NCBI GenBank assembly: GCA_963788655.1
Contig: CAWBHS010000103.1
Span: 1 to 39,719 of the forward strand
DNA: 39,719 bases
Reading direction: 5' to 3'
Origin: an uncultured Verrucomicrobiae bacterium
GTDB taxonomy: Bacteria; Verrucomicrobiota; Verrucomicrobiia; Limisphaerales; JAFGQR01
The notes below the pieces were generated by a model. The model had not been told where the DNA came from and made no database searches. It saw only the letters and a list, made by a program, of their open reading frames with translations. Positions 9,114-39,719 of the stretch are shown in pieces. The stretch's first letter is position 1. Each line of letters begins with the position of its first letter. Position numbers and translations under genes: made by a program.

Positions 9114-9126
9114 AATTCAATTCCGC

Positions 9127-24537: not shown

Positions 24538-24731
24538 ACTTATTCGACGGCCTCGTTAAAAGGCAGGTTGGGTTCGTGGTGCGGTTTCCAGTTCTTCAGA
24601 TGCTCGGTGAGACGGAGAATTGGTTCTCGTTTACGCTCATATCCGTTGAGGCTACGCCGTCGTGCCGGATAATGGAAAGTGCATTTTGAACGCCGCTTGA
24701 TTCCCCGACGGGTCGCGCCTACCATTCATGC

Positions 24732-25787: not shown

Positions 25788-26149
25788 CCAGCCGGAAGAC
25801 ATTGTTCATCGGCTGCTCCCCACGTCGAACTGATTGGCAAGTTGCAACAAAAGTGCCTGCCGGCTGCTCGGCCCCAACTGCAAAAGGTTTGGACCGCTCC
25901 ATTTCACCGCAAAGCGGCTCAACCCGTTCTCTGCTGAGCTCTTCGTGACTTGGCGGTGAATCCGGTCATCGCTCACCACCAGGACTTTCGAAGTTGATAT
26001 TCGCGTCCTGTGGATTGCGACTCGCTGGTCGATAACACGTGAAATTGCCAGCAAGCGACGACGAAGGCTCTGCCACTTCAACGCTTCAACGAAGTTGGCT
26101 CCGGCTCGGCCGTGCGGCCATCGTTGCGTTCGAACTGGTGCGTTTACGC

Positions 26150-29100
26150 TCATTCCGCTTCCGGCTTCCATTGCGGGATTCGGCCCGGAGTCCACGGCGC
26201 GCCGGCGGCATCAAGCTTCGCATTCAACGCGGCGAGGTCTTTATCCGTCAACGTACGGAATTTGGCCAAGACTGTGCCGAACGCCTCCGCGGCGTCGCGA
26301 TAGGAGTCCTTTTGGGTCTGGGTTGGCGGGGAAGTCACATGCCACTGGCTGCCCACAATGTCCTCGACGCGCGACTGAATCGACGACACCTGCGGTTCCT
26401 GCTGTTTGGCGAGGGTCTGATCGCCACGGAGTTGCGTAAGGATTTTGGTCAACTGGTCCTCGATGCTTTCCTCGGTGGCTAGCATCGCGGTGTCCACCGT
26501 GGGTGTATTCAGGATGGCTTGACGGATATATTTGAGCCGGTCTTGCGCATCTTTGGCGGCGCGGACGGTGCCTTCGACGGCACGCTGGAGCCGGGCGACC
26601 TTCAAATCGAATTTGAGCGCCGCTTCCTTGTCTTTCGCCGCAAAGGTGGCGAGTTCCAGCGGAATCACTTTGAAGGGAACCGGCTCGTTCAACCGAGTCA
26701 ATTTGCCAGCGACTTCCTTGGTCAGGGTCACCGAGTAATTCCCCGGCAGGGCGAGTGGGCCGGAGGGCAAGTCTTCCCATGGCGGCAGTTCTTTGTTTTC
26801 CTTGAGTTCAATGGGCTTGGCCGATGGATAACGCAAATCCCAGGGCACGCGATGGATGCCCTTGTCGCGCGAACCGGGCAGTTTGCGAACCACGGTGCCT
26901 TGGTCGTTACGAACCACGAGTTGGACTTCCGGCTCTGGTTCTTGATCCTCGGCGCGCAATTCCGCGATCGTTGGATAAGCGATTGGTTTACCTTCCTTGT
27001 GCGCCTTTTTTTCCGCTGCTTTGCGCTGCTCATGCGTGGTCATAAGTTTGTCCTTCAAATGATACGTGAACACGGCGCCAAAGGGTGGATTGGGCGCCGC
27101 GTAGAAACTGGCGCCTTGCGAGCCCCGACCGTCGCGATCGCCGAGCCGGCTGCGTTGGACGTAGCGCAAGGCGTCCTTCACTGGAAACACAAACGCGTCC
27201 TGCTTCAGCACTTCCCGCGTGGCGTGCCGCAGCGGCGTGTAATCATCGAGGACGTAAATGCTCCGGCCAAACGTGCCGATCACCAGATCGTTCTCTCGGC
27301 GCTGCACCTCCAGATCGCGCACGGCAACCGTAGGCAGCCCGCTGATCTTAATCCAGTTCGTCCCGCCATCGAGGGTGAAATAGGCGCCGAACTCAGTGCC
27401 GGCGAACAGCAGATTCGGTTTCACACCGTCTTCTTGGATCGAATAAACGACGTTGCGCGACGGCAAATCACCGGCAACGGAAACCCAGCTTTTGCCACGA
27501 TCGGCGCTCTTGAGCAGATACGGTTTGAAATCGCCGTTCTTGTGGTTGTCGAAGCTGGCATACACGGTGTCGGCTTGGTGACGCGATGCCGTCAGGCAAC
27601 TAACGTACGTCATGTCCGGCACGCCTGGGAATACCGCGATCTTGCGCCAATGCTGGCCCCCATCCTCGGTCACCTGCACCAATCCGTCGTCGGTGCCCAC
27701 GTAGATGAAGCCCTCGACGAGGGGCGATTCGGTCAGCGAAACGGAGTTACCAAAGAAGGACGTGGATTCCCCCTTGGCCACGGCTTCCGGCAGTTGAATC
27801 CGGCCCAGGATCGGCAACGTGTTGCGATTGATGCCGCGCGTGAGATCGCCACTGATGGCCTTCCAACTGTTGCCGCGGTCGTCCGAACGAAAGAGCCGGT
27901 TGGCTCCGAAATAAAGCCGTTCGTAGTTAAACGGACTAAGGATCAGGGGCGAATCCCAGTTCCATTTCAACGGTGGTTCGCCGGGCGCAGTGGTCGGTTT
28001 GATATCGACCATTTCACCGCTGCGGCGGTCATAACGGACGAGGCCGCCGTATTGCCACATACAATAAATGAGGTTCGGATCATCCGGATCCACGACCGAC
28101 TCGTAGCCGTCGCCGCCCACGGTCACGAACCAATCCGCTGATGTGATGCCCGCGCGGTCGGTCGTCTGCGCGGGGCCGCCTTGCGAGTTGTTGTCCTGGG
28201 TGCCGCCATAAACGTAATAGAACGGCTTCGAAGTATCCGCGCTGACGCGGTAGAACTGCGTGATGGGAAGATTCGGTTTGAAACCCCAGTTTTGTCCCCG
28301 GTCAAAGGTTTCGTAAACACCGCCGTCGCAGCCCACGAGGAGATGTTCATTGTTCGTGGGATCGATCCACAGCGCGTGATCATCGACGTGTCGGTTCTTG
28401 CGCGGAACCCGTTCGAAATTCTTCCCGCCGTCTTCGGTAACGCGCATGAACGTGTCCAAAGCGTACACCCGGTCCACCTTGATGGGATCAGAAATGATTT
28501 CATTGAAATACTGGGGACTGGTCGTCATGTAATCGCTGCGTTTTTCCCAGGTTTCCCCACGGTCGAGTGAACGGAAAAATCCGCCTTTGTCCTCGGCAGC
28601 TTCGATGATCGCATAGATCACATCGGGGTTGACTGGCGAAATCGCCAGTCCAATTCGACCTTTGTCCACGTCCGGAATGCCGTTGGTGAGCTGGCGCCAG
28701 TGCTTGCCCGCGTCGGTGGATTTGTAGATGGCCGACTCCGGCCCGCCGTCGATCAACGTCCACACGTGCCGCCGGCGCTGATACGCGGAAGCATAAAGCA
28801 CGTTGGGATCGCGCGGATCGAGATGCACCTCGTTGGCGCCGGTGTTCTCGCTGATGGGCAGAACACACTTCCAGGTTTTGCCGCCGTCGATGGTCTTGTA
28901 CACGCCGCGGTCCCCGCCGGCGCGCCAGAGCGGGCCTTGCGCAGCCACATACACGATCTCCCCATTCTTCGGATGGACGGCAATCATGCCGATGTGCTCG
29001 GAATTCGTCAGCCCCACATTGGTCCAATGCGTTCCGTCATCCAGGGAACGATACACTCCGTCGCCGAAGCCGACGCTGCGTTGACTGTTGTTTTCGCCGG

Positions 29101-29482
29101 TGCCCACCCAAACGTCGTTCGGGTTTTGCGGATTCAGGGCTACGCACCCAATCGAGTACGAACCTTCCTGGTCGAACACTGGAATCCACGTGATGCCGGC
29201 ATCCTTCGTCTTCCAAACGCCCCCGGAGCATACGGCCACGAAATAGTGCGAATGATCGCGCGCGTCCACGGCGAAATCGCCCACCCGTCCAGACATTAGC
29301 GCGGGCCCGATCGACCGAACCTTCAGGCCGTCAAAGAAACCGGCCGGAATGCTCTCAGCCTCGGTCGTGGTCTTAATGGTTCGATTGGTTTGGTCGTCCG
29401 GGATTGGTTCAGCGGCCAGGGCCGTTTGGTTCAACCCGACGAGCCACCCGATTCCAGTGAGCAGCAGGACAATTGTTTTCAC
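26150..29482 (-). CDS. Large secreted BNR/Asp-box (VPS10/sortilin-like) beta-propeller protein, putative glycosyl hydrolase
   Basis: RSIGPALMSGRVGD, many S/T-x-D-x-G-x-x-W repeats, WVGTGE, HVDDHALWIDP, GGTQDN, GGDGY and a C-terminal coiled region. Likely start GTG 29482 (VKTIVLLL signal peptide). Confidence 0.88.
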   Translation of the reverse strand: MKTIVLLLTGIGWLVGLNQTALAAEPIPDDQTNRTIKTTTEAESIPAGFFDGLKVRSIGPALMSGRVGDFAVDARDHSHYFVAVCSGGVWKTKDAGITWIPVFDQEGSYSIGCVALNPQNPNDVWVGTGENNSQRSVGFGDGVYRSLDDGTHWTNVGLTNSEHIGMIAVHPKNGEIVYVAAQGPLWRAGGDRGVYKTIDGGKTWKCVLPISENTGANEVHLDPRDPNVLYASAYQRRRHVWTLIDGGPESAIYKSTDAGKHWRQLTNGIPDVDKGRIGLAISPVNPDVIYAIIEAAEDKGGFFRSLDRGETWEKRSDYMTTSPQYFNEIISDPIKVDRVYALDTFMRVTEDGGKNFERVPRKNRHVDDHALWIDPTNNEHLLVGCDGGVYETFDRGQNWGFKPNLPITQFYRVSADTSKPFYYVYGGTQDNNSQGGPAQTTDRAGITSADWFVTVGGDGYESVVDPDDPNLIYCMWQYGGLVRYDRRSGEMVDIKPTTAPGEPPLKWNWDSPLILSPFNYERLYFGANRLFRSDDRGNSWKAISGDLTRGINRNTLPILGRIQLPEAVAKGESTSFFGNSVSLTESPLVEGFIYVGTDDGLVQVTEDGGQHWRKIAVFPGVPDMTYVSCLTASRHQADTVYASFDNHKNGDFKPYLLKSADRGKSWVSVAGDLPSRNVVYSIQEDGVKPNLLFAGTEFGAYFTLDGGTNWIKISGLPTVAVRDLEVQRRENDLVIGTFGRSIYVLDDYTPLRHATREVLKQDAFVFPVKDALRYVQRSRLGDRDGRGSQGASFYAAPNPPFGAVFTYHLKDKLMTTHEQRKAAEKKAHKEGKPIAYPTIAELRAEDQEPEPEVQLVVRNDQGTVVRKLPGSRDKGIHRVPWDLRYPSAKPIELKENKELPPWEDLPSGPLALPGNYSVTLTKEVAGKLTRLNEPVPFKVIPLELATFAAKDKEAALKFDLKVARLQRAVEGTVRAAKDAQDRLKYIRQAILNTPTVDTAMLATEESIEDQLTKILTQLRGDQTLAKQQEPQVSSIQSRVEDIVGSQWHVTSPPTQTQKDSYRDAAEAFGTVLAKFRTLTDKDLAALNAKLDAAGAPWTPGRIPQWKPEAE

Positions 29483-29692
29483 ACTCGGTTTGTTGTTCGG
29501 ATTTGGTTCGCGACGCACGGCAGGAGGATAGGATTGTGGCGCCGCGTTATTCAAGACTTGCCGGTAATGAATAAACGGCTCGGCTGACCTCAGCACAAGC
29601 GGATCCTGTGGCACTCAGATCTCCCCACGGTAACCGAACTACGCATTTGGATCATGAATCCAATAGAAGTGTCGTTGGACGCGACAGCGCCG

Positions 29693-29767
29693 TGGACTGC
29701 GGCAGTCCTCTGCCGCTTTAGAAACGCTCGAATATTGTCAAAAGCGCCAGAGGGCTGGCGCAGTCCA
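29693..29767. repeat. REP-like inverted pair
   Basis: TGGACTGCGGCAGTCCTCTGCCGCTTT (29693-29719) and AAAGCGCCAGAGGGCTGGCGCAGTCCA (29741-29767) are imperfect reverse complements, each with an internal hairpin. The pair lies just 3' of the PL6 gene. Confidence 0.75.
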
Positions 29768-29791
29768 AAACCTTGCGGTAATTCGATCGGT

Positions 29792-32164
29792 TCAGGGAAA
29801 GGGGTGAGAATGTTCCGAGCCTGCCCTAACTGAAGCCTGTGTGGTGTGGCTGCAATTCGACGGAATTCGCAGACTGAAACTCAGTGGTGAGGCGGCCATA
29901 ACCGTTAGGATGCCTGGACCATAGCTTGCGGCCAGGATTTGAGCTTGCACGTCAGCCATTTCTCGCGCGATTGGACCGTCGATGAATTCCAACCCCGTAT
30001 TCGTGTCGGCAACATGCGGCAATGCCAGCAAAGCAAGGCTGATAATTTCCTGCGTGCCCGGCGCAAAGGTGCTCCCGGGTGGCAGCGCCAATGCCACGCC
30101 CACCTTGCCGGCGGAAAGCGCGTTGGTATTGACCAACAAAGCTGCTGCGGCGGAGGCAGCAGTCGGCTTGGCTCCGACGAATCTCACCATGGCCGGATCA
30201 AACGAGAGCGTGAAGCCGGCGGCGTTTTCGTTGCCGCTCGCCTTCAGCACCACTGCCACCGATTTGGTCGTGCCCGCCGCCATCATTGTGTCCCTCACCC
30301 GCAGGAACCGGCCTGTGCCATCTCCGCGGCTGGCCAATGCCGACACGGACTTACCGGGATTGATTGCGGAGGCGATGGGCGCGGTGGGGCCGCCGACGGG
30401 TTTCACCGGATCCAGACCGCTCGCGTAACGTCCGGCCTGAACCCAATCGGCGATGCTCAGCGCGCCGTTGCCCAGCGTAGCGGACGGAGCGCAATCCGCG
30501 CGTTGAAACTCGCCTCCCTCCACAGGTTGGTCCAACGCGGCCGCAAACCGGCCCGCTTGCACCCAATCCGTGATGGTGACAGTGCCGTTCGTGCTGCCAT
30601 GGGGACGGGGTTGCACATCGGCTTCATAACTCACGGTGTCCGATGGCCGCATCCAGAGTGGTCCTACGTCAGCCGGCGTCAACGGCGGATACACGGCGAT
30701 GGCCGAAGACGCTTGATCGCAACCAACATCTTTGGTCACGGGCCGGGTGGTTCCATCAATGTCTTCTGTCACAAAATCGTAATTGCCTTGCGCCGCGCCG
30801 AGAACCGGGCTGTTGGTAGCGGGACGCCACAAACCATCCGCCGCCGGCAATAACTGCGGATCGGTTTGCCAGATTCCGCTGTTGGTCGCAATGCCCAGCG
30901 AAGTGCCATACATGATATTGCCTTCCCAGGTCAGGTTCACCGGCGTAATCCGTTGATCAACCAGTTTGCCGCTGCTGGTAAGCACGATGTTGTTGGCGAT
31001 GACGCAATCCTCCGGCGGCAACGTGGTTACCTGCGGGGTGCCGCTGTAGGTGCCGGGCAGGCCGATGACCAGGCTGTTTTGGCAATTGACGAACGTGTTG
31101 AACGCCACGACGGCGCGTTTGACCTGGAAATAGCCGTTGAGCGGGCTGTTCTCCAGGCCCTGCATGATGGTCAACGCCGACCGACCGCTGGTGCCGGTCA
31201 GTTCCCCAAAATAGTTGTTGAACACTTGGTGGTCCTCGCCGATGACCCGCACGCCACCGGTGAGCGGTTTGAGGTGCCCAAAGAAATAGTTGGCGGCCAC
31301 CACGCACCGGTTCCCGTGCCGCAAGGTCAACGTCCCCTCGCACTCGACGAACGTGTTGTGCCGATAAACATTCTCACACGACTTATTGGAGATGATTTCA
31401 ATCTCGCCGTTGCAACGTTCGAAATAGTTGCGCTCAACCAGGGTGCCGGAACGGTTCATCGACACCTCGCTGGTGCCGACGCGGATGGTTTCCCCGCCAT
31501 TGACGCCCAAGTCGGATCGCGGGCCGAAATAATTGTGATCGAGGCGATGGCCATTCGGCTGATCCGGTTGGCTGGACACCCACACGACCAGCGTGGTACC
31601 GGCGTTGGTTTTGCCCGCGAAATAGCAATTGTCCACCCGGTTGCTGACGCCATAAAGCGAAACCCACTTGGTGTCGATAAGCCCGCTCGGCGGATTGTAG
31701 TCAATGATGGCGCATTCGGTCAGCCGGCAATGGTTGGCTGGTGCGTCATCGGCATCGCGGAATTCGACCACCGCGTCCGAGGTGACATAACCGTTCGTGA
31801 ATTGCAGACCGGAAACCACCAGGAAGCTGCCGGCCAGCCGCAGCCGTGACGTGCCGCTGAGCGTGACTTGGCCGGGGACTTGGGCTTGCAAGGTGATGGG
31901 CTGGGTGGCGGTACCGTTGCCTTTGAATGTGATGTCGGCATTTTGCCAGACGCCGGTGGCCATGATCAGCGTGTCTCCCGGTTGGACAGTCTGCATCGCC
32001 GCCGTGATTTCCGACACGCTCGCAACCAATTGGCTGTCGGCCAGCACGGGAGTTGTCCCGCTCAACAGCATCAACCCAACGCCCAACCCTCGCGTCGGCG
32101 AAAGCAATCGGCCACACCAATTTTGGCGGCATCCGCGGCTCATCTTGATTTGTGCCGGTGGCAC
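29792..32164 (-). CDS. Polysaccharide lyase family 6 (alginate lyase/chondroitinase B beta-helix) with C-terminal dockerin-like and cohesin domains
   Basis: QPGDTLIMATGVW, GTATQPITLQAQVPGQV, NRVDNCYFAGK, NGGETIRVGTS, GEIEIISNKSCEN, LTLRHGN and GGVRVIGEDHQVFNNYF. Then a duplicated DWVQAGR(F/Y) repeat (~30630-30410) and cohesin-like GNENAAGFTLSFDP (~30310-29900). Confidence 0.88.
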   Translation of the reverse strand: MPPAQIKMSRGCRQNWCGRLLSPTRGLGVGLMLLSGTTPVLADSQLVASVSEITAAMQTVQPGDTLIMATGVWQNADITFKGNGTATQPITLQAQVPGQVTLSGTSRLRLAGSFLVVSGLQFTNGYVTSDAVVEFRDADDAPANHCRLTECAIIDYNPPSGLIDTKWVSLYGVSNRVDNCYFAGKTNAGTTLVVWVSSQPDQPNGHRLDHNYFGPRSDLGVNGGETIRVGTSEVSMNRSGTLVERNYFERCNGEIEIISNKSCENVYRHNTFVECEGTLTLRHGNRCVVAANYFFGHLKPLTGGVRVIGEDHQVFNNYFGELTGTSGRSALTIMQGLENSPLNGYFQVKRAVVAFNTFVNCQNSLVIGLPGTYSGTPQVTTLPPEDCVIANNIVLTSSGKLVDQRITPVNLTWEGNIMYGTSLGIATNSGIWQTDPQLLPAADGLWRPATNSPVLGAAQGNYDFVTEDIDGTTRPVTKDVGCDQASSAIAVYPPLTPADVGPLWMRPSDTVSYEADVQPRPHGSTNGTVTITDWVQAGRFAAALDQPVEGGEFQRADCAPSATLGNGALSIADWVQAGRYASGLDPVKPVGGPTAPIASAINPGKSVSALASRGDGTGRFLRVRDTMMAAGTTKSVAVVLKASGNENAAGFTLSFDPAMVRFVGAKPTAASAAAALLVNTNALSAGKVGVALALPPGSTFAPGTQEIISLALLALPHVADTNTGLEFIDGPIAREMADVQAQILAASYGPGILTVMAASPLSFSLRIPSNCSHTTQASVRAGSEHSHPFP

Positions 32165-32288
32165 GATTTCATTTCCATCATCTTAACCTTAAACATCGTC
32201 GAAAGCGGCTCCCGACTACAATTTGCCGGCATTTTGCACTGGTTTCTTGTGCTCGGACAGGCTTGTATCATGGCCAAACCATAACGTG

Positions 32289-32966
32289 ATGAAATTACTT
32301 TTGGTGGAAGATTCACCGCGGTTGCAGCGTTCGCTCGCCGAAGGGTTGCGCCACGCCGGCTACGTCCTGGATATCACAGGCGATGGCGCGGAAGGACTGT
32401 GGTTGGCGAAGTCGAACGGTTACGACGTGATCATTCTCGACATCATGTTGCCGGGCTTGGACGGGTTGGCGGTGCTCGAACGCTTGCGCGCCCAGGGAAA
32501 GGAAACCCACGTATTGATGCTCACAGCGCGGGATGCGGTCGAGGACCGCGTGCGCGGATTGCAAATGGGGGCGGACGACTATCTGGTCAAGCCGTTTGCT
32601 TTCGAGGAACTGCTGGCGCGCATCCAGGTCTTGTGCCGTCGCGGGTATGGTAACAAGAATCCGGTCATCCGCGCCGGTGACCTGGAATTGGATCAGGCCA
32701 GCCGGGCGGTGAAACGGAGCGGCACGGCGATTGAATTGACTGCCCGCGAATATGCCCTCCTCGAATATCTGGCGCTGCGCCGCGGACAAGTCGTGTCCCG
32801 CACCGAAATTGAGACCCACATTTACGATGACCAGGCCGATCCCATGAGCAATGTGGTGGACCGCACCGTGTGCGTGCTGCGCCGAAAACTCGGTCGGCCC
32901 GGCTCGGCGCCGTTGATCCATACCCGGCGTGGGCAAGGCTATTTGCTCGAACCCGATCCGGCATGA
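32289..32966 (+). CDS. OmpR/PhoB-family response regulator
   Basis: MKLLLVED, YDVIILDIMLPGLDG, LMLTARD, GADDYLVKPFAFEELLARI, LTAREYALLEYL and IHTRRGQGY. Start ATG 32289. Confidence 0.95.
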   Translation: MKLLLVEDSPRLQRSLAEGLRHAGYVLDITGDGAEGLWLAKSNGYDVIILDIMLPGLDGLAVLERLRAQGKETHVLMLTARDAVEDRVRGLQMGADDYLVKPFAFEELLARIQVLCRRGYGNKNPVIRAGDLELDQASRAVKRSGTAIELTAREYALLEYLALRRGQVVSRTEIETHIYDDQADPMSNVVDRTVCVLRRKLGRPGSAPLIHTRRGQGYLLEPDPA

Positions 32967-34492
32967 AATCTATTCGCCACCAATTAACGCTCAGTCTGCT
33001 GCTGGGTTTCGCCCTGTTGCTCGGGGCCGGCGGCGTGGCGGTCTATTGCTCAGCCCGGGCCGGTTTGTATCGTGAGTTTGACAACGGACTCCGCCTTAAA
33101 GCTCTAGCCATCGCCGCCCTGACCAGACGTACGCGCGAAGGGGTCAGGTTTGAATTTCGTGATCGGCTCCAGCCAACCAACAATTCCCAGCTTGCCATCG
33201 ATTACTACCAATTGTATGCCCGCCACGGAGATTCGCTGGAACGTGCTCCCTTGCTGGGTCAAACGAACCTGCCACCGCGGTTCGGTTCCTTGACGGAGCC
33301 AACGTTCTTCAATCTCGAGTTGCCAGGCAAAGTGCCCGGACGCGCAGTGGGTTTGGAATTCGTCGTCAAGCAACGCAACCGGAAAGCTGTGCGAGAGGAC
33401 GAGGACGAAGAAGAACCCGCAGCAAAACCTGCCACCGCTAGCAAGCCGGCCAAACAACCCTCGCCAGCGTTGCCCCCGCTGCCGGTCGGACTCGTGGTGG
33501 CAGCAGAACGAACGGCGCTGGACCATACCTTGAGGGCGCTGGCCAATCTGTTGGGACTCGCCGGCGGGGCCAGCCTGCTGGCCACGATCGGGCTTATTGC
33601 CGTGGCGCTCCGCCGGGGACTCCGGCCACTGGACCAGCTTGCCGGGCGGGCCGAGCGCATCGACGCCGCTTCGTTGCAAACCCGGTTTCCCGCCGACGGC
33701 CTGCCTGCCGAATTGACGCCCATTGCCCAGCGGCTCAACGAACTGTTGTCCCGCTTGCAAGCCGCGTTCGAACGGGAACGCCGCTTCAGTGCCGACCTCG
33801 CCCATGAACTGCGCACGCCGCTGGCGGAGTTGCGGTCCCTGGCGGAGGTCAAGCTCCGGTGCGGCAACCCGGCCGACCACGAGTCGTTTCGGGAGACGCT
33901 GGACATCGCCATCCAGATGCAATCGCTGGTAACGCGCTTGCTGGCCTTGGCGCGTTCCGAACAGCGCGACCTGCCCCTCCAAGCAGAACCGGTGGAGATC
34001 AACCGGGTGCTGGAATCCGTGTGGGAAAAGCTCCGGCCTCGGGCGGATCGCCACCAGCTTGCCGTCAAACTGGCGGTGCCACCGCCCAGCCGGATTGTTA
34101 CCGATGCGGCTTTGTTCCGCGGCATCCTGCAAAACCTGCTGGCCAATGCGGTCGATTACACGCCGCCGCAAGGAGCCTTGGCGGTTCAATTTGTGGGCAA
34201 CAACAACCATTTTGAGCTAACCATCCGAAACACGACCGCCAAATTGGAGGCGGCCGACCTGCCGCACCTCTTCGACCGCTTCTGGCGCAAGGACAGTGCC
34301 CGCACCGATTCGGCGCACAGCGGCTTGGGGCTGGCCTTGGCCCGCTCCTTTGCCGAGTTGCTCGGCATGCAACTGTCGGCGCGGTTGGAAAGCAACGGGC
34401 AATTTGTCCTCACCCTGTCCGGCCCGCTGAAGGCCGGTCCCGAACCACAACGAGGAAGCCCAGAGGCAAAAGTGAGGGAATTGATACGGTAA
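32963..34492 (+). CDS. Membrane sensor histidine kinase (HAMP-HisKA-HATPase; CusS/QseC-like)
   Basis: ATGA overlap with the regulator; two TM helices; H-box FSADLAHELRTPL, N-box NLLANAVDY, HLFDRFWRKD and G2 box HSGLGLALA. Confidence 0.93.
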   Translation: MKSIRHQLTLSLLLGFALLLGAGGVAVYCSARAGLYREFDNGLRLKALAIAALTRRTREGVRFEFRDRLQPTNNSQLAIDYYQLYARHGDSLERAPLLGQTNLPPRFGSLTEPTFFNLELPGKVPGRAVGLEFVVKQRNRKAVREDEDEEEPAAKPATASKPAKQPSPALPPLPVGLVVAAERTALDHTLRALANLLGLAGGASLLATIGLIAVALRRGLRPLDQLAGRAERIDAASLQTRFPADGLPAELTPIAQRLNELLSRLQAAFERERRFSADLAHELRTPLAELRSLAEVKLRCGNPADHESFRETLDIAIQMQSLVTRLLALARSEQRDLPLQAEPVEINRVLESVWEKLRPRADRHQLAVKLAVPPPSRIVTDAALFRGILQNLLANAVDYTPPQGALAVQFVGNNNHFELTIRNTTAKLEAADLPHLFDRFWRKDSARTDSAHSGLGLALARSFAELLGMQLSARLESNGQFVLTLSGPLKAGPEPQRGSPEAKVRELIR

Positions 34493-34506
34493 TGTTACGG
34501 TAATGT
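34485..34506 (+). promoter_or_regulatory. Perfect 11-bp tandem direct repeat, candidate OmpR/PhoB-type operator upstream of the PepM-like operon
   Basis: TACGGTAATGT|TACGGTAATGT spans the kinase stop codon and ends 47 bp before ATG 34554. An 11-bp period is typical of winged-helix regulator boxes. Function is inferred. Confidence 0.45.
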
Positions 34507-34553
34507 TGGGTTTGGGAGAGTGCAGCGCGTTAGTCGAAATATTTGTATGAACC

Positions 34554-35588
34554 ATGCGAAATAGAGAAGTCACCGCCGCGGAGGTTCCGGCAAGAAACGT
34601 CACCGCGAGCCGTGAGCGGGATGACGTCGCGCTTTTGTTTGACGGACGCTTTCAAACCGGGGTCGGCGTGTATGACGGTCTTTCCGCGTTGCTCGCGGAG
34701 AAATGGAAATTTGCCTTTGCCTGGGTGAGCAGCTTCTGCTGCTCCGCCGCCGCGGGACTTCCCGATGCGGGCATCATTGGTCCGGAAGACATTCTCAACG
34801 TGGTGCGGTGCGTGCGCCGTTGCGTTGCACTGCCCATCGTGGTGGATCTCGACTCCGGTTACGGTGACGCCATCAAGGTATTTCACGTGGTCGAAGCCAT
34901 GACCCGGGCGGGCGCGGCGGCTTTGTGCATCGAGGACAATCCCATTTCCAAACGTTGTAGCCTGTACGATGGTTATGATCGCGCGCTGGTGCCTATCGAG
35001 GAACACATCACTCGCTTGCGCGCGGCTCGGGCGGGCGTAGCGCAGGCTCATTGCACCTGCCACATTATCGCGCGGACCGAAGCGCTCGTCGCGGGGAAGG
35101 GTCTCGCCGAAGCGTTGAAGCGCGCGACGGCTTATGCCGATGCCGGAGCCGACGCCGTGTTTGTTCAATCGCTGGATACGACCGGCAATGAAGTGCTCAC
35201 GTTTGGACGCAAATGGCAACGGCGAACGCCGATCTTCATCGCGCCAACGCGGCTGCCTCACGTTACGAAGAAGGAGTTCGCCGACGCCGGAATTTCGCAC
35301 ACGATTTTTGCGAATCAGGGACTTCGCGCCGCGCACGCCGCCATGGATCGCACGTTCGGCATCTTGGCGCAGTCGCAATCCGCCACCGGGGTTGACTCGG
35401 AGATTTCCAGTATTGCCACGGTGGCGAATTTGGTCGGAGCGCAGCAGGTGGTTGAGTTGGAAGCCCAGTTGGCCCACGGAAATGGAAAGCCGGCGCCGGC
35501 ACCAACGCCACCGGGGGGAGGTTTGGTGATTCCGACGGGTGGTAAGCTGGAAACGCATGCTGCCGACCGCAGCGTACCCAACGACTAA
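34554..35588 (+). CDS. Isocitrate lyase/PEP mutase superfamily enzyme, most like phosphoenolpyruvate mutase, with a non-canonical active-site loop
   Basis: YDGLSALL, WVSSF...GLPD, IVVDLDSGYG, CIEDNPISKRCSLYDG, IIARTEALVAGKGLAEALKRATAYADAGADAVFVQS, PIFIAPT and GISHTIFANQGLRAA align with the PepM/phosphonopyruvate hydrolase branch. Confidence 0.8.
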   Translation: MRNREVTAAEVPARNVTASRERDDVALLFDGRFQTGVGVYDGLSALLAEKWKFAFAWVSSFCCSAAAGLPDAGIIGPEDILNVVRCVRRCVALPIVVDLDSGYGDAIKVFHVVEAMTRAGAAALCIEDNPISKRCSLYDGYDRALVPIEEHITRLRAARAGVAQAHCTCHIIARTEALVAGKGLAEALKRATAYADAGADAVFVQSLDTTGNEVLTFGRKWQRRTPIFIAPTRLPHVTKKEFADAGISHTIFANQGLRAAHAAMDRTFGILAQSQSATGVDSEISSIATVANLVGAQQVVELEAQLAHGNGKPAPAPTPPGGGLVIPTGGKLETHAADRSVPND

Positions 35589-35633
35589 GCTTCGTGGATT
35601 GACATTTTCCTGGTCCTGACCGTAAGGGAGAAC

Positions 35634-36824
35634 ATGCTGGCTGAACGAATGAAGGGTTTTTCCGGTTCGCGGACTTCCGGGATGCGCAACCGGGCGCGGA
35701 AACTTCGCGCCGAAGGCATTCACGTGGTGAACTTCGCCGCGGGTGAACTGGATCAGGACACCAGTCCCGGAATCAAGGCCGCGGTGCGGCAGGCGGTGGA
35801 TGCAGGCCATACGCAATACACCGACACGCTGGGCCTTCGCGAATTGCGCGAACGAGTTGCGGCGAAGATCATCCAGAAGACCGGCGTCACCTACACCGCG
35901 GAGGAAGTCGGCTTCACCGCCGGTGCCAAGCAAGCGTTGTTCAACGCGAATTTCGTACTGTTCCAACCGGGGGATGAAGTCATCATTCCGGCTCCCTATT
36001 GGGTGACGATGCCGGAGCAGGCGCGGTTGGCCGGCGCGACACCGGTTGCGCTGCCGACCGGACCCCATGGTTTTCAAATCGACGTCGGCGAACTAGCGCA
36101 AGCCATCACACCACGCACGCGGGGACTCATTCTGAACACGCCGCACAATCCGACCGGCGTGGTTTATTCGTCGGAACTGCTGAAGCAAATTGCCCAATTG
36201 GTGTTGCAACACGACCTGGTCTGCATTTTCGACGAGTGCTACGACCAATTGGTTTATGCCCCCGCCGTGCATCACAACCTCGTGCAGGTGGTTCCCGAGA
36301 TGAAAGCGCGAACCGTGCTCATCGGTTCGTTGTCGAAATCCTATTGCATGGCGGGTTGGCGGGCCGGTTATTTCGCTGCCCCGCAACCCATTGTGAAAGC
36401 GATTGCCAATCTGCAAAGTCATATCGCGTCGAATCCCTCCAACCTCGTTCAATATGCGGCTTTGAATGCCTTCGAGCCGGAGAACGACGCCTTTGTGGCC
36501 GGCAACCGCAAGCAATTGACCGCCCAGCGGGCGACGGCGCTGGAACTGATCCAAAAGATTCCCGGCCTGCCTTGTGTCGTTCCCCAAGGCGCCTTCTATC
36601 TTTTTCCCGACGTGAGCTCACTTTTTGGCAAATCATTCCAGGGCCAGCGCGTGGACAATGGGGATCGACTGGCCGAACTGCTGCTGGAACACGCTCACAT
36701 CGCCATCGTTCCCGGCTCGGCCTTTGGCGCGCCCGATCACCTGCGCATCTCCTACGCGATCCCGACCGAAGAAATCGTGACCGGGTTGACTCGCCTGGGG
36801 CAGTTTATGCAGTCGTTGTCATGA
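35634..36824 (+). CDS. PLP-dependent class I/II aminotransferase (aspartate aminotransferase-like)
   Basis: RBS GGGAG; NFAAGELD, YTDTLGLRELR, TAGAKQAL, ILNTPHNPTG, DECY, PLP-lysine motif SLSKSYCMAGWRAGY, PQGAFYLF and VPGSAFG...LRISYA. Confidence 0.95.
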   Translation: MLAERMKGFSGSRTSGMRNRARKLRAEGIHVVNFAAGELDQDTSPGIKAAVRQAVDAGHTQYTDTLGLRELRERVAAKIIQKTGVTYTAEEVGFTAGAKQALFNANFVLFQPGDEVIIPAPYWVTMPEQARLAGATPVALPTGPHGFQIDVGELAQAITPRTRGLILNTPHNPTGVVYSSELLKQIAQLVLQHDLVCIFDECYDQLVYAPAVHHNLVQVVPEMKARTVLIGSLSKSYCMAGWRAGYFAAPQPIVKAIANLQSHIASNPSNLVQYAALNAFEPENDAFVAGNRKQLTAQRATALELIQKIPGLPCVVPQGAFYLFPDVSSLFGKSFQGQRVDNGDRLAELLLEHAHIAIVPGSAFGAPDHLRISYAIPTEEIVTGLTRLGQFMQSLS

Positions 36825-38098
36825 ACGTTCCCGCCCCGAATTCAAATCCCTCCATGACGCAATCCGGCATGGTGTTGTTCCTCGGCATGGTGCGCCGTGG
36901 AGAATTTGAGAGCCTCGAAAAACGCGGCTTGCCGTTGGGTATTTTGGTGGACACGAACAGCAAGGCGCGCCTCGGCGATGTCTCGCGCTTCGTGGTCGTC
37001 GAGCGGTTCGATTTCTCGCGGCCGTTACCGGAACTGATCGAGAAGGTGCGCGCCATTCGGCAGCGGTTCGGCATCGTGTGCCTCTACAACGTCATCGAAT
37101 TCTATGTGGCCCAGACGGCCGCCGTCGCCGCCGCGCTGGGGCTACCCGGAATTGCTCCCCAATCCGCGAGATTGTGCCTCGACAAAAATCTCATGCGCCA
37201 ACGGTTTCACGAGCGGCTGGGGCCGGGCGTGGGGGCGCGTTGTCATGCGATTCATTCCGAAGCCGAATTGCTGAAGTTTGCTGACGAGCTGGGCTTCCCG
37301 TGTTTTTTGCAACCGGCGAATGTCTCCGCCAGCATGTGGGCCACGCGCAACACAAACCGCGAAATGCTGCTGGCCAATTACCGCAAAATCGTCAGTGAGG
37401 TGCCGAAATACTACGAGCGCCTGGGGAAGAAAGGCACGGCGCTGAGCGTGGTCCTGGCGGAATACCTGGAAGGGATAAACATTTCCATCGACTGTCTGAT
37501 GGACAAGAAGGGCCAGGTCTTCACGACGCCGGCGGTGGAGGTGCTGACCGGACAGGACGTTGGCCTGGACGACTTTCATCACTTTGCGCGTCTGCTTCCG
37601 GCGCGGCTCAGCGCGGAGGAGGAAGCGGAGCTGAACCGGTTGGCCATTACCGGGGTGCAGGCGCTCGACATGACGACCAGCGCTTCGCACGTCGAATTCA
37701 TCGGTTCCCGCCTCGGCGAAATCGCGGCGCGCCCCGGCGGCAACCGTCCGCGCATACTCGAAATGGCCTACGGCATGGATATGCTGTACGCCTATTACCA
37801 GATTCTTCGGGGTGAAACCCCTGATCTGCGCCCGAATCGCAACTTCGCGGCGGCCGTTGTCACGCCGTTTGCGCCGCGCGACGGTCCGCTACGCTCGATT
37901 CGTCACTTGGATCGCATTCCCCAATTGCCGGGCTATCTTTATCACGAAGTTCGCGCGCAACCCGGCCAGCCGGTCGGCCTCTCCCGGAGCGGATACCGCG
38001 CCGGATTGTATGTCGAACTGTTGTCCGACGATGCCGATGAAGTCCGCCACAGCGTGGACCAAATCGCGTCCTGGACGGATTTGTATGAACTGAACTGA
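36821..38098 (+). CDS. ATP-grasp ligase (L-amino acid ligase-like)
   Basis: Start ATG 36821 overlaps the aminotransferase stop (ATGA). Motifs AAALGLPG, CLDKNLMRQRF, LGFPCFLQP, VLAEYLEG and SHVEF...GEIAARPGG. Confidence 0.82.
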   Translation: MNVPAPNSNPSMTQSGMVLFLGMVRRGEFESLEKRGLPLGILVDTNSKARLGDVSRFVVVERFDFSRPLPELIEKVRAIRQRFGIVCLYNVIEFYVAQTAAVAAALGLPGIAPQSARLCLDKNLMRQRFHERLGPGVGARCHAIHSEAELLKFADELGFPCFLQPANVSASMWATRNTNREMLLANYRKIVSEVPKYYERLGKKGTALSVVLAEYLEGINISIDCLMDKKGQVFTTPAVEVLTGQDVGLDDFHHFARLLPARLSAEEEAELNRLAITGVQALDMTTSASHVEFIGSRLGEIAARPGGNRPRILEMAYGMDMLYAYYQILRGETPDLRPNRNFAAAVVTPFAPRDGPLRSIRHLDRIPQLPGYLYHEVRAQPGQPVGLSRSGYRAGLYVELLSDDADEVRHSVDQIASWTDLYELN

Positions 38099-39340
38099 AT
38101 GACCGGCCGGCCCGCGTTGCTCCCTTCGATTTCTCCGACCGCACGCCGGCTGTTGACGGCGCGGTTCTGGCGGAGCATCGCGCAAGGCACACTGGTGGTG
38201 GATCTGGCGCTTTACCTCAACGCCCTGCACTGGTCGGGAACGGCCATTGGCGCCGTGTTGGGCGTGGCGGGAATCGCGGGCGCCGCCTTCGGCGTGGCGA
38301 TTGGACTGGTGAGTGATCGTTTCGGACGCAAGCCGTTTTTGCTGGCCTACGAAGCACTTTGTTGTCTCTGCGGCCTCGTGGCATTTGCCACCAGCCAGAC
38401 GGCGCTGCTCGCGGCGGCCATCATGCTGGCGGGTTTTGGCCGGGGCGCAAATGGCGCGGCGGGGCCGGTGTCTCCGGCGGAAGATGCCTGGCTGGCCGAA
38501 AATGTCGAACCGCTGGCGCGCGGCTTTGTATTCAGTCTGAAATCCGCCATCGGGTTTACGGGCATGGCGATCGGCGCGTTGGCGGCGATGTTGCCCGCCA
38601 TGTGGACCACCCTCGGCCCGGCGGGAAGTTACCGCCCGATCTTTCTCATCGTGATTCTGGGCAATGCCGTCAACATATACATACTCATGGGCACCCCCGA
38701 GCAGAAACACGCGCCGGCGCGGATCGTTGATCCTGCGCCACCCAAATCGCCGGAAGAGACTCGCGCACGCGAGAATCAATTTCTGCTCCGCCTGGTGGCC
38801 CTCAATGCCTTCAACGGATTGGCTGTGGGACTCACGACGCCATTGATGTCTTACTGGTTTGCGGAGCGCTTCCACATCGGTCCCCTGCTGATCGCGCCCG
38901 TCATGGCGGCGACCTTCCTCGCCGTCGCGGTGGCCGCATTGTTCAGCGGCGGGTTGACGCGGCGCGTCGGCCTGGTCAACGTCATGGTGTGGGGACGCGG
39001 GGGTGGATTGGCGCTGCTGGTGCTTTTTCCGCTGATGCCGGTCTATGCGCTGGCGGCGTTGCTGCACATAATGCGTTCCGCGTTAAATCTCGGAACTATT
39101 GGCGCGCGGCAGGCGTTGGTGGTCAGCGCCGTGCATGACCATCGACGCGGTTTGGCCTCCAGCCTCAACACCTTCTCGGGAAGAATTCCGCAGTCCCTCG
39201 GACCGGTTGTTGCCGGCAGTCTTATCGGCGCGGGACAGTTGGTGATGCCATTCTACCTGGCCGCGGTTTTTCAAGGAGCGTACTTGTTTCTCTTTGGACG
39301 ACTTTTTCGTCAGATCGAACACAGCATGCAACAGAAGTGA
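38099..39340 (+). CDS. Major facilitator superfamily transporter
   Basis: The start directly abuts the previous stop. About 12 TM helices; motif A GLVSDRFGRK and its second-half echo GGLTRRVG. Confidence 0.92.
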   Translation: MTGRPALLPSISPTARRLLTARFWRSIAQGTLVVDLALYLNALHWSGTAIGAVLGVAGIAGAAFGVAIGLVSDRFGRKPFLLAYEALCCLCGLVAFATSQTALLAAAIMLAGFGRGANGAAGPVSPAEDAWLAENVEPLARGFVFSLKSAIGFTGMAIGALAAMLPAMWTTLGPAGSYRPIFLIVILGNAVNIYILMGTPEQKHAPARIVDPAPPKSPEETRARENQFLLRLVALNAFNGLAVGLTTPLMSYWFAERFHIGPLLIAPVMAATFLAVAVAALFSGGLTRRVGLVNVMVWGRGGGLALLVLFPLMPVYALAALLHIMRSALNLGTIGARQALVVSAVHDHRRGLASSLNTFSGRIPQSLGPVVAGSLIGAGQLVMPFYLAAVFQGAYLFLFGRLFRQIEHSMQQK

Positions 39341-39472
39341 TGTGCGCTCCCATTACCTCGGTCTCCCGAAACGCCGGACTTGCAATCTTTACGTTTCGAT
39401 TATTGCGGAAATATCTCGGCGAAACTTGACCTTGAACATCACCCCATCGTCACCGCTAACCTCTGAACCGAC

Positions 39473-39719
39473 TTGACTATTAACGCTCAAACCGAACCTA
39501 CTCAACTCAGCCCTCCCGGCAAATATTCAAGCGACTCGATTGCGTGCCGTCATGGCGTCGTGGTGTCCGTCTCGCGACCCGCGTCGGAGGTGGGAGTCTC
39601 CATTCTCAGGCGCGGCGGCAACGCGGTGGATGCCGCGGTCGCCACCGCGTTCGCCCTGGCCGTCACCTATCCCGCCGCGGGCAACATCGGCGGCGGCGGA
39701 TTCAGCAAAGACCAACGGT
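39473..39719 (+). CDS. ggt: Gamma-glutamyltransferase N-terminus, running off the window end
   Basis: Not in the ORF track because it has no stop. The frame from TTG 39473 reads ...HGVVVSVSRPASEVGVSILRRGGNAVDAAVATAFALAVTYPAAGNIGGGGF, the GGT N-terminal signature. No signal peptide. Confidence 0.85.
   Translation, partial: MTINAQTEPTQLSPPGKYSSDSIACRHGVVVSVSRPASEVGVSILRRGGNAVDAAVATAFALAVTYPAAGNIGGGGFSKDQR

What the first reader, a model, noticed from the sequence alone, without database searches (positions are those of the whole stretch)
34554..39340. Candidate phosphonoalanine-peptide (phosphonoalamide-like) biosynthetic operon in a Verrucomicrobia-like genome
Seen: four co-oriented genes with 45-bp, overlapping (ATGA) and 0-bp junctions, encoding a PepM-like enzyme, a PLP aminotransferase, an ATP-grasp ligase and an MFS transporter. 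No phosphonopyruvate decarboxylase or cytidylyltransferase is present. Established: PepM makes phosphonopyruvate and needs a coupling step; in the phosphonoalamide pathways of Streptomyces and Bacillus that step is transamination to phosphonoalanine, followed by ATP-grasp ligation, with an MFS gene in the cluster. Inference: this is a minimal cluster for an exported peptide containing a phosphono (or analogous) amino acid, in a lineage where I do not recall one being characterised.
Basis: partly seen in the sequence, partly recalled or inferred. Interest (0 to 1): 0.9.

Follow-up and report, generated by a model that had tools for sequence, protein, structure and literature searches.

The report
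Likely phosphonopeptide operon with odd mutase
A conserved five-gene operon of uncultured Verrucomicrobia probably makes and exports a small peptide built on an amino acid with a carbon-phosphorus bond, but its key enzyme lacks the sequence signature normally used to recognise such enzymes, so this branch has been overlooked.

Summary
The four genes and their junctions are as described. A fifth co-oriented gene, a gamma-glutamyltransferase (GGT) cut by the contig end, also belongs: it is present in 12 of 12 related loci with enough room.

The first enzyme has a PEP-mutase fold and is nearest to PepM and phosphonopyruvate hydrolase. It fails the field's PepM test: EDKX5NS reads EDNPISKRCS, and His190 is Gln. 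Both changes are invariant in 120 of 120 homologues.

In trees it falls in a starred clade apart from canonical PepM/PPH and from lyases. Clade members and other motif-less relatives are the only PepM-family gene beside phosphonopyruvate decarboxylase genes or Ppd-like genes (two pass NCBIfam's cut-off) or homocitrate-synthase-like genes, in 10 of 15 hand-picked loci.

Best reading (about 0.5): a non-canonical PEP mutase, an AspAT-type transaminase, an L-amino-acid-ligase-type ATP-grasp and an MFS exporter make a phosphonoalanine peptide, with GGT adding or removing a gamma-glutamyl group.

Rivals are a different 2-oxo acid, or catabolism. Nothing has been shown biochemically. I rate it a new variant of a known kind.

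The parts
32223..32966 (+). OmpR-type response regulator (the start codon is uncertain). This is context, not a conserved part of the operon.
   Evidence: Pfam Response_reg plus Trans_reg_C. A 60%-identical regulator lies next to the operon, on the opposite strand, in L007 only.
32963..34492 (+). HAMP/HisKA/HATPase sensor histidine kinase. The ORF is listed from 32870; the likely ATG is at 32963. It ends 61 bp before gene 1. This is context.
   Evidence: It is not conserved at the other loci, where the upstream genes are RND efflux genes or others.
34554..35588 (+). Gene 1: a PEP-mutase-fold enzyme of a motif-less clade. The loop reads EDNPISKRCS at residues 127-136 and Gln205 stands in place of His190. 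It is the proposed non-canonical PEP mutase.
35634..36824 (+). Gene 2: a class-I PLP aminotransferase of the aspartate-aminotransferase type. It is the proposed 2-oxo acid (phosphonopyruvate) transaminase.
   Evidence: Pfam PF00155, E 2.7e-72. The best NCBIfam match is aspartate transaminase at 337.6 bits, below the cut-off of 617. The best PDB matches are AspATs, E 3e-85. It is a dedicated paralogue: other AspAT-like genes in the genome are 41% and 34% identical.
36821..38098 (+). Gene 3: an ATP-grasp ligase of the L-amino-acid-ligase type, translationally coupled to gene 2 by an ATGA overlap.
   Evidence: The best PDB matches are BacD (E 2.3e-7) and BL00235. The Atlas neighbours are ATP-grasp_4/LAL_C2 clusters.
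38099..39340 (+). Gene 4: an MFS transporter (weak matches to drug/H+ antiporters), at a 0-bp junction with gene 3.
   Evidence: This MFS type was found by tblastn in 5 of 14 related loci with room. L033 has another MFS in the same place.
39473..39719 (+). Gene 5: the N-terminal 82 codons of a gamma-glutamyltransferase, cut by the contig end. No signal peptide is present.
   Evidence: The full-length orthologue in L006 scores 490.2 bits on TIGR00066 (cut-off 357.85). GGT is present in 12 of 12 related loci with room. The rest of the gene was not found on another contig.

Best explanation
This is a five-gene biosynthetic operon for a small exported peptide built on L-phosphonoalanine.

Step 1 (inferred): gene 1, a Mg2+-dependent PEP-mutase-fold enzyme of a motif-less clade, isomerises PEP to 3-phosphonopyruvate.

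Step 2 (inferred from family and position): the AspAT-type transaminase pulls this unfavourable equilibrium by forming phosphonoalanine, as PnaA does.

Step 3 (inferred): the L-amino-acid-ligase-type ATP-grasp enzyme, translationally coupled to the transaminase, spends ATP to ligate phosphonoalanine to another amino acid. This makes the flux irreversible.

Step 4 (inferred): the MFS protein exports the product.

Step 5 (least certain): the GGT adds a gamma-glutamyl cap to the amino acid or peptide, or removes one, as a masking or activation step.

What is shown: the genes, their coupling, their conservation as a unit, the fold, the conserved metal and substrate residues, and the genomic company kept by related motif-less enzymes. 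What is not shown: any reaction or product.
For: Fold and nearest relatives. The best PDB sequence matches are PepM 5unc (E 1.3e-46), PPH 2dua (7.4e-46) and Mytilus PepM (2.3e-39). The AF2 model (pLDDT 89.7) superposes on 5unc at 1.4 A, TM 0.93 by target.

Active-site residues. By the alignment, the Mg ligands and substrate residues are kept: D71, D98, D100, E127, K133, S136 and R174 correspond to D58, D85, D87, E114, K120, S123 and R159.

Phylogeny. The enzyme lies in a starred clade of 23 rows (SH-aLRT 98). With a sister clade that also has Gln at the His190 position, the group is 34 rows (96). This group is separate from the canonical PepM plus PPH-like clade (22 rows, 99) and from the outgroup of E. 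coli PrpB and own-genome paralogues (the same picture).

Company kept by relatives. I hand-picked 15 of the 49 loci below 60% identity for contig length and motif variety. All 15 first enzymes lack EDKX5NS. In 7 of the 15, a phosphonopyruvate decarboxylase gene or a Ppd-like gene lies within about 5 kb (directly adjacent in L068, L078, L096, L099 and L112). L078 (348 bits) and L097 (329.1 bits) exceed the TIGR03297 cut-off of 312.5. L085 scores 302.8. L068, L096, L099 and L112 carry split or half genes. Three more loci (L064, L070, L075) have homocitrate-synthase-like genes scoring 397-418 bits; L075 also has aconitase and IDH, the Frb-type set. L068 carries the same N/C/Q triad as the window enzyme, is 53% identical to it, and is followed by a Ppd-like gene and a RhiG-type aldolase.

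No second PepM-family gene lies within the fetched flanks of up to 8 kb in any of the 80 loci, apart from a small extra hit at the end of L078.

Operon partners. The partners match the phosphonoalamide logic (PMC11867202, sections 6-7 read). The genome has no canonical PepM and no Ppd.
Against: Gene 1 fails the motif that the field uses to define PepM: EDKX5NS reads EDNPISKRCS. It also has Gln for His190, one of the two residues said to hold the phosphoryl group (passages of PMC7916636). Its TIGR02320 score is 209.9 against a cut-off of 319.55.

The Asn122 position carries Cys, and Ser in clade relatives. The Asn122Thr change is what most authors hold responsible for hydrolase rather than mutase activity in PPH (PMC7916636 passage). 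K-R-C aligns with the catalytic loop KRCGH of E. coli methylisocitrate lyase.

Five of the 15 hand-picked relatives' loci showed neither a Ppd-like nor a homocitrate-synthase-like neighbour. The 15 were not a random sample.

The split Ppd-like genes score only a little better on the Ppd model than on the sulfopyruvate decarboxylase models.

A GGT has no role in any phosphonopeptide pathway that I could find. Its location differs between sub-types of the operon.

No member of the clade has been assayed, as far as my searches show.
Confidence: 0.5

Rival explanations
1. The operon is catabolic, for a phosphonoalanine-type or gamma-glutamyl compound. GGT frees the amino acid, the MFS protein imports it, the transaminase makes the 2-oxo acid, and gene 1 is a phosphonopyruvate-hydrolase-like enzyme that releases pyruvate and phosphate, as PalB/PalA do.
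For: Gene 1 scores 168.3 bits on the PPH model and matches PPH 2dua at E 7.4e-46, almost as well as it matches PepM. The Asn122 position carries a small Cys or Ser, and the hydrolase has Thr there (PMC7916636 passage). In five related loci the GGT has a lipoprotein-type signal, which suits cleavage of an external substrate. A two-component sensor lies upstream in the window.
Against: An ATP-grasp ligase, translationally coupled to the transaminase, has no role in this scheme. The enzyme is not in the PPH-like (K..T..H) branch, which nests inside the canonical clade. Clade relatives sit beside Ppd-like and synthase genes that consume phosphonopyruvate, which makes no sense for a hydrolase. The PPH model score is far below its cut-off of 374.4. 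The window's own GGT lacks a signal peptide.
Confidence: 0.2
2. The operon has the same biosynthetic logic, but gene 1 makes a 2-oxo acid other than phosphonopyruvate. This would be an oxaloacetate-like acid with another beta substituent, or a product of Cys-assisted chemistry at C3. The exported peptide would then carry a non-phosphonate antimetabolite amino acid.
For: Three residues around the phosphoryl site differ from every canonical PepM, and the changes are invariant in 120 of 120 homologues. Two positively charged or polar phosphoryl contacts are lost (Lys116 to Asn, His190 to Gln). The Cys aligns with the general acid/base of the lyases. Ppd-like neighbours of some relatives score nearly as well on the sulfopyruvate decarboxylase models.
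Against: No alternative substrate or source pathway is encoded in the operon. Two relatives with Asn116 and Gln190 (but Asn122 kept) neighbour decarboxylases that pass the curated Ppd cut-off. Motif-less relatives with Cys at the Asn122 position are fused to nucleotidyltransferase domains like those of Ppm-PntC fusions, which act on phosph(on)ates.
Confidence: 0.15
3. Gene 1 is an ordinary C-C lyase of the isocitrate lyase family (methylisocitrate or oxaloacetate-acetylhydrolase type), and the neighbouring genes are unrelated amino-acid metabolism.
For: The K-R-C loop aligns with KRCGH of E. coli PrpB. The Pfam ICL model matches weakly (E 1.5e-10) and prpB scores 145.3 bits.
Against: The prpB score is far below its cut-off of 354.4. 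The enzyme groups with the PepM/PPH radiation, not with PrpB or the genome's own paralogues. The Gly-His of the lyase loop and the Glu at the His190 position are absent. The five-gene order is conserved across about 60-85% identical homologues. The operon is sporadic: 2 of 200 other genomes of the order and 0 of 400 of the phylum sample.
Confidence: 0.05

Closest known systems
Phosphonoalamide pathway of Streptomyces (pnaABCD plus pnaT): PepM PnaD, AAT-superfamily transaminase PnaA, ATP-grasp ligases PnaB and PnaC (PMC11867202; abstract and sections 6-7 read)
   Same: A PepM-family enzyme is followed by an aspartate-aminotransferase-type enzyme, an ATP-grasp amino-acid ligase and a transporter. 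No decarboxylase is present. Transamination serves as the coupling step.
   Different: Gene 1 lacks EDKX5NS and His190 and lies in another clade. There is one ligase, not two. A GGT is a constant fifth member. The organism is from Verrucomicrobiota, not Actinomycetota or Bacillus. I had no sequences of PnaA-D, so homology to them was not tested.
Canonical PEP mutase (PepM/Ppm; TIGR02320; structures 1pym/1m1b, 5unc)
   Same: The fold, the Mg ligands, and Arg159, Lys120 and Ser123 are shared. These are the nearest solved structures.
   Different: Lys116 is Asn, Asn122 is Cys and His190 is Gln, invariant in the family. The score is below the curated cut-off.
Phosphonopyruvate hydrolase PalA (TIGR02321; 2dua)
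   Same: It has almost equal sequence and structural similarity, and a small residue at the Asn122 position.
   Different: PPH keeps the EDK Lys and His190 and has Thr, not Cys. PPH-like representatives nest in the canonical clade, away from this enzyme. The score is 168.3 against a cut-off of 374.4.
Bacilysin-type dipeptide antibiotic operons (BacD ligase, BacF aminotransferase, BacE MFS exporter); the pathway description is recalled from my own knowledge
   Same: A 2-oxo acid maker is combined with an aminotransferase, an L-amino-acid ligase and an MFS exporter. BacD is the best solved relative of gene 3.
   Different: The chemistry of the warhead is unrelated. The similarity of gene 3 to BacD is weak (E 2.3e-7 over residues 63-190).

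Membership tests
PEP mutase (PepM/Ppm) | PEP mutase / isocitrate lyase superfamily TIM-barrel fold | tested here: met
   PF13714, E 1.3e-46. The AF2 model has pLDDT 89.7. The best structural match is PepM 5unc, rmsd 1.4 A, TM 0.93 by target.
PEP mutase (PepM/Ppm) | Signature motif EDKX5NS, the field's discriminator (passages of PMC8942020, PMC6697681 and PMC12723261) | tested here: not met
   The motif reads EDNPISKRCS at residues 127-136. Asn129, Cys135 and Ser136 are invariant in 120 of 120 homologues.
PEP mutase (PepM/Ppm) | Mg2+ ligands Asp58, Asp85, Asp87 and Glu114, plus Arg159, Lys120 and Ser123 | tested here: met
   D71, D98, D100, E127, R174, K133 and S136, by the gap-free alignment to 1m1b.
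PEP mutase (PepM/Ppm) | His190 as a phosphoryl-holding residue (PMC7916636 passage) | tested here: not met
   Gln205, invariant in 120 of 120 homologues.
PEP mutase (PepM/Ppm) | Score at or above the curated cut-off of NCBIfam TIGR02320 | tested here: not met
   209.9 bits against 319.55. Many motif-bearing representatives also fall just below the cut-off, at 289-318 bits.
PEP mutase (PepM/Ppm) | Encoded next to an enzyme that consumes phosphonopyruvate (a coupling enzyme) | tested here: met
   An AspAT-type transaminase lies 45 bp downstream. It follows in 27 of 33 related loci with room. Clade relatives sit beside Ppd-like or homocitrate-synthase-like genes.
PEP mutase (PepM/Ppm) | Catalyses PEP to phosphonopyruvate | not testable with these tools
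   This needs an enzyme assay.
Phosphonopyruvate hydrolase (PalA) | Curated score on TIGR02321; Thr at the Asn122 position, with the EDK Lys and His190 kept | tested here: not met
   168.3 bits against 374.4. The residues are Cys, Asn and Gln instead. The enzyme is not in the PPH-like branch of the tree.
Isocitrate lyase-type C-C lyases (PrpB and relatives) | Catalytic loop K-(K/R)-C-G-H and Glu at the position of PepM His190; curated prpB score | tested here: not met
   K-R-C is present, but it is followed by S-L, and Gln stands for Glu, in the alignment to E. coli PrpB. TIGR02317 scores 145.3 against 354.4. PrpB is the outgroup.
Phosphonoalamide-type gene cluster | PepM, AAT-superfamily transaminase, ATP-grasp ligase(s) and a transporter, with no decarboxylase | tested here: inconclusive
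   The transaminase, one ATP-grasp and the MFS are present, and no Ppd is found in the window or genome. The PepM member is non-canonical. There is one ligase instead of two, and an extra GGT. Sequence homology to PnaA-D was not tested because no sequences were in hand.
L-amino acid ligase (ATP-grasp) | ATP-grasp domain with the LAL C-terminal domain | tested here: inconclusive
   ATP-grasp_4 scores 35 bits (cut-off 27). LAL_C2 scores 23 bits, below 29.4, and ATPgrasp_N scores 20.2, below 27. The best solved relatives are BacD and BL00235.
Gamma-glutamyltransferase (TIGR00066) | Curated score; Ntn-hydrolase proenzyme | tested here: met
   Only 82 codons lie in the window. The 78%-identical orthologue in L006 scores 490.2 against 357.85. 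The catalytic Thr was not examined.

The most novel reading that the evidence does not exclude
[quoted passage not shown] One possibility is a mechanistically different, Cys-assisted route to the C-P bond. The other is formation of a different beta-substituted 2-oxo acid. In either case this operon, and the wider motif-less clades that the EDKX5NS filter discards, would encode a so-far unseen class of antimetabolite amino acids and peptides, here handled through a gamma-glutamyl pro-form.
Probability: 0.2. Interest if true: 0.9.

Novelty: new variant of a known kind. Interest (0 to 1): 0.7.

Why it matters
Genome mining for phosphonates counts only PepM homologues that carry EDKX5NS (passages of PMC8942020, PMC6697681 and PMC12723261). 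This work shows a large radiation of PepM-fold enzymes without that motif. Many of them are the sole PepM-family gene beside phosphonopyruvate decarboxylase genes, Ppd-like genes or FrbC-like synthase genes.

If these enzymes are active mutases, C-P biosynthetic capacity is under-counted, and Verrucomicrobia of the order Limisphaerales hold an unexplored phosphonopeptide. If they are not, a new reaction awaits discovery in a well-studied superfamily.

The operon is small (about 6.5 kb with GGT) and directly testable by expression and 31P NMR. The constant GGT partner would be a new element in phosphonopeptide logic, possibly a masking or activation step.

Tried and rejected
I used genomic contexts from the metagenome scan instead.
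- The 'careful' tree did not finish in 300 s. The quick PMSF tree with SH-aLRT support is what I report.
- One row, L097, was cut in a wrong frame (branch length 10) and should be ignored.
- I looked for a hidden signal peptide or frameshift upstream of the window's GGT and found none.
- I looked for the rest of the GGT on other contigs and did not find it. The only other hit is a 42%-identical paralogue.
- The promoter and terminator scan of 32000-39719 was uninformative: 0 promoter-like sites, and 9 terminator-like sites against 10.1 expected.
- Earlier findings of this scan held nothing on this place or family.
- Literature searches for a motif-less or atypical PepM, for GGT in phosphonopeptide pathways, and for Verrucomicrobia phosphonate biosynthesis found nothing pertinent.
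- The genome-contig scan gave only 4 loci.
- I considered and rejected carboxy-PEP mutase: TIGR02319 scores 73.9 against 420.05, and no source of its substrate is present.

Full report
OBSERVATION

The window is a whole 39,719-bp contig of an 8.96-Mb, 86%-complete genome.
- 34554-35588: 344 aa, Pfam PEP_mutase, E 1.3e-46.
- 35634-36824: 396 aa, class I/II aminotransferase, E 2.7e-72.
- 36821-38098: 425 aa, ATP-grasp_4 at 35 bits against a cut-off of 27. There are sub-threshold LAL_C2 and ATPgrasp_N matches.
- 38099-39340: 413 aa, MFS_1, E 3.2e-30.

The junctions are a 45-bp gap, an ATGA overlap and a TGA-ATG abutment. A fifth co-oriented ORF starts at 39473 and runs off the contig. It is the N-terminus of a gamma-glutamyltransferase. 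Upstream on the same strand lie an OmpR-type regulator and a HAMP histidine kinase that ends 61 bp before gene 1. No phosphonopyruvate decarboxylase or nucleotidyltransferase is in the window. The genome has no match to the Ppd model above 28.6 bits and no PepM-model match over the cut-off.

THE FIRST ENZYME IS NOT A CANONICAL PepM

Its best curated-model scores are all below cut-off:
- PEP mutase: 209.9 against 319.55.
- Phosphonopyruvate hydrolase: 168.3 against 374.4.
- prpB: 145.3 against 354.4.
- CPEP mutase: 73.9 against 420.05.

Residue-by-residue alignments to PepM 5unc and 1m1b and to PPH 2dua show two things.
- The Mg ligands and Arg159, Lys120 and Ser123 are kept, as D71, D98, D100, E127, R174, K133 and S136.
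- The signature EDKX5NS reads EDNPISKRCS, so Lys116 is Asn and Asn122 is Cys. His190 is Gln205.

The field uses EDKX5NS as the filter that separates PepM from the rest of the superfamily (passages read in PMC8942020, PMC6697681 and PMC12723261). A review states that Arg159 and His190 hold the phosphoryl group. It also states that most authors ascribe the hydrolase activity of PPH to Asn122Thr (passages of PMC7916636).

Aligned to E. coli PrpB, the K-R-C of the loop matches the lyase KRCGH. The Gly-His that follows is Ser-Leu, as in PepM, and the lyase Glu at the His190 position is Gln. The loop is thus a hybrid. The AF2 model (pLDDT 89.7) is closest to PepM 5unc (rmsd 1.4 A), then Mytilus PepM, then PPH, then the lyases.

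A DEFINED, CONSERVED FAMILY

A search of 5.8 billion proteins gave 682 hits at E <= 1e-20 among the 8000 candidates scored. The 120 best are 67-100% identical and, where named, come from Verrucomicrobia/Pedosphaera-type MAGs. In their alignment Asn129, Lys133, Arg134, Cys135, Ser136 and Gln205 are invariant, 120 of 120.

The family is sporadic among species genomes.
- In 200 other genomes of the order, 2 (G111 and G198, 75% and 71% identical) carry it.
- Twenty others carry a 32-37% identical fused protein. Nineteen of these have EDK...NS and one has Ser at the Asn position.
- None of the three carriers has such a second hit.
- A same-genus genome lacks the family.
- In a 400-genome sample of the phylum, none has a hit at E <= 1e-60.

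THE OPERON IS A FIVE-GENE UNIT

I pooled 6 loci from genomes and 31 of the 80 metagenome loci, taking those whose first enzyme is at least 60% identical. Among these 37 loci:
- The aminotransferase follows in 27 of 33 with at least 600 bp of room.
- The ATP-grasp follows in 16 of 20 with at least 2.2 kb.
- The GGT follows in 12 of 12 with at least 5.2 kb.
- The window's type of MFS was found by tblastn in 5 of 14 with room.

In L033 the same slot holds another MFS (Pfam). In the other loci a gap of 1.3-1.4 kb is only presumed to hold one. Several loci are near-duplicates, so these counts overstate independence.

There are exceptions.
- L039 and L040 lack the aminotransferase.
- L057 and L062 go from the aminotransferase straight to GGT. 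L073 has an aminotransferase of the same diverged kind, but its contig ends before any GGT.
- L008 and L066 show no aminotransferase downstream.
- L009 has two small extra genes before the aminotransferase.

Flanks differ between loci (RND efflux genes, a PIN gene, a class-III aminotransferase, an aldose epimerase), so the unit ends with GGT.

The full-length GGT of L006 passes the curated model: 490.2 against 357.85. It carries a lipoprotein-like signal in L034, L036, L039, L044 and L052. It carries none in the window, L006, L047 or L051, which are the loci with the window-type MFS.

The operon's aminotransferase is of the AspAT type. The best PDB matches are AspATs at E 3e-85, and it is a dedicated paralogue. 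The ligase's best solved relatives are the L-amino-acid ligases BacD and BL00235. The Atlas neighbours agree.

WHERE THE ENZYME SITS, AND THE COMPANY ITS RELATIVES KEEP

A full HMMER search of 1.84 billion representatives gave 276 proteins at E <= 1e-30. In the best 150, the three positions show many combinations besides K/N/H.

In a quick tree of 138 rows, the window enzyme lies in a starred clade of 18 rows. A second tree of 89 rows was a quick PMSF tree, rooted on E. coli PrpB and three own-genome paralogues. In it:
- The window enzyme's clade has 23 rows (SH-aLRT 98).
- With a sister clade that keeps Asn122 but also has Asn116 and Gln190, the group is 34 rows (96).
- Canonical PepM together with the PPH-like K/T/H rows forms a separate clade of 22 rows (99).
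- The backbone is poorly resolved.

Placement among canonical mutases is not met either.

I then annotated 15 loci, hand-picked for contig length and motif variety from the 49 metagenome loci whose first enzyme is under 60% identical to the window's. All 15 first enzymes lack EDKX5NS.

Seven have a phosphonopyruvate decarboxylase gene or a Ppd-like gene within about 5 kb of the motif-less enzyme; it is the directly adjacent gene in L068, L078, L096, L099 and L112.
- L078 scores 348 bits and L097 scores 329.1 bits, both above the curated cut-off of 312.5.
- L085 scores 302.8 bits.
- L068, L096, L099 and L112 have split or half genes. These score somewhat better on the Ppd model than on the sulfopyruvate decarboxylase models.

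Three have homocitrate-synthase-like genes (L064, L070, L075; 397-418 bits). L075 continues with aconitase and isocitrate dehydrogenase, the set known from FR-900098-type pathways. That attribution is recalled, and is partly stated in PMC8942020.

L068 has the same N/C/Q triad as the window enzyme, is 53% identical to it and lies in the same starred clade. It is followed by a Ppd-like gene and a 4-hydroxy-2-oxovalerate-aldolase-like gene, the RhiG type named in PMC8942020.

Five loci (L065, L067, L072, L076, L094) showed neither kind of neighbour.

Other motif-less proteins (EDNxFPKRCSFY, His kept) are fused to MobA-like nucleotidyltransferase domains, like the Ppm-PntC fusions of PMC6697681.

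No locus of the 80 holds a second PepM-family gene within the fetched flanks, apart from a small hit at the end of L078.

Each of the three substitutions thus occurs in enzymes that appear to be the only possible source of phosphonopyruvate for a neighbouring phosphonopyruvate-consuming enzyme. This is guilt by association, on a non-random sample, but it is consistent.

INTERPRETATION

The most economical reading is that the EDKX5NS rule is too strict, and that gene 1 is a non-canonical PEP mutase. Its unfavourable equilibrium would be pulled by transamination and then locked by ATP-dependent ligation, as in the phosphonoalamide pathway (PMC11867202, sections 6-7). Export would be by the MFS.

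The GGT is the most constant partner and is unexplained by that precedent. It may cap the amino acid or peptide with gamma-glutamate, or uncap an exported pro-form. The lipoprotein forms suit the latter, and the signal-less form in the window suits the former. I hold the C-P reading at about 0.5. The broader statement that this is a biosynthetic operon for a small peptide of an unusual amino acid I hold at about 0.7.

The rivals are:
- A catabolic phosphonoalanine/gamma-glutamyl route with a PPH-like hydrolase (0.2). The coupled ligase and the clade's neighbours argue against it.
- A different 2-oxo acid product (0.15).
- An ordinary lyase (0.05).

NOVELTY

Searches of the paper library found no description of a motif-less PepM, of a GGT in a phosphonopeptide cluster, or of phosphonate natural products from Verrucomicrobia. 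This holds only for that library; supplements were not consulted.

One tangent: PMC8861647 reports 2-aminoethylphosphonate on C. difficile flagellin, although that species scored negative in a large pepM homologue screen. This shows that a source of C-P compounds outside the recognised pepM set is an open question.

I class the finding as a new variant of a known kind. The pathway logic is known. The mutase clade and the GGT partnership are not.

Noticed in passing
P0141, P0144, P0156, P0157; L096:821-3949: PepM-fold proteins with EDNxFPKRCSFY (Lys116 to Asn, Asn122 to Cys, His190 kept) are fused to MobA-like nucleotidyltransferase domains, like canonical Ppm-PntC fusions. In L096 a Ppd-like half gene follows directly. 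The motif filter used in the literature would drop them.
   Followed up: partly
L078, L085, L097, L112, L072, L094 (metagenome loci, GC about 0.7): A clade with EDNAFPKRNS and Gln at the His190 position sits in clusters with Ppd (two pass the curated cut-off), FMN-dependent dehydrogenase, NDK-like, FemAB-like/GNAT, P450 and methyltransferase genes. These look like uncharacterised phosphonopeptide-type clusters.
   Followed up: partly
P0124 (409 aa); P0143 and P0159 (801 and 623 aa): A relative in the window enzyme's clade carries an N-terminal PqqD-like (peptide-recognition) domain at 29.6 bits. Two other motif-less relatives are fused to AMP-binding adenylation domains.
   Followed up: no
L034, L036, L039, L044, L052 versus window, L006, L047, L051: The operon's GGT has a lipoprotein-type signal peptide in one sub-type and none in the other. 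The signal-less form goes with the window-type MFS.
   Followed up: partly
L018 (G021:C53): One of the 20 otherwise canonical fused PepMs of the order reads EDKLFPKTSS, with Ser at the Asn122 position.
   Followed up: no
window 21152-32164: The neighbourhood is polysaccharide-degradation-like: a sulfatase, a 7-bladed lactonase, an esterase, a BNR/sortilin repeat protein and a chondroitinase-B-like protein of 790 aa.
   Followed up: no
window 1-3149 and 9000-15000: GC is 0.66-0.69 in the first 3 kb, which includes a CHAT-domain gene at 2322-3149. It falls to 0.49-0.55 between about 9 and 15 kb, where several ORFs have no Pfam match.
   Followed up: no
G000:C38:161408-162566: The genome's closest other AspAT-like gene (41-43% identical to gene 2) matches in two pieces that are not in one reading frame. 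This may be a frameshift or an assembly error.
   Followed up: no
PMC8861647 (passages read): C. difficile flagellin carries 2-aminoethylphosphonate, although the species was negative in a large-scale pepM homologue screen. Whether a motif-less PepM-fold gene explains this was not checked.
   Followed up: no
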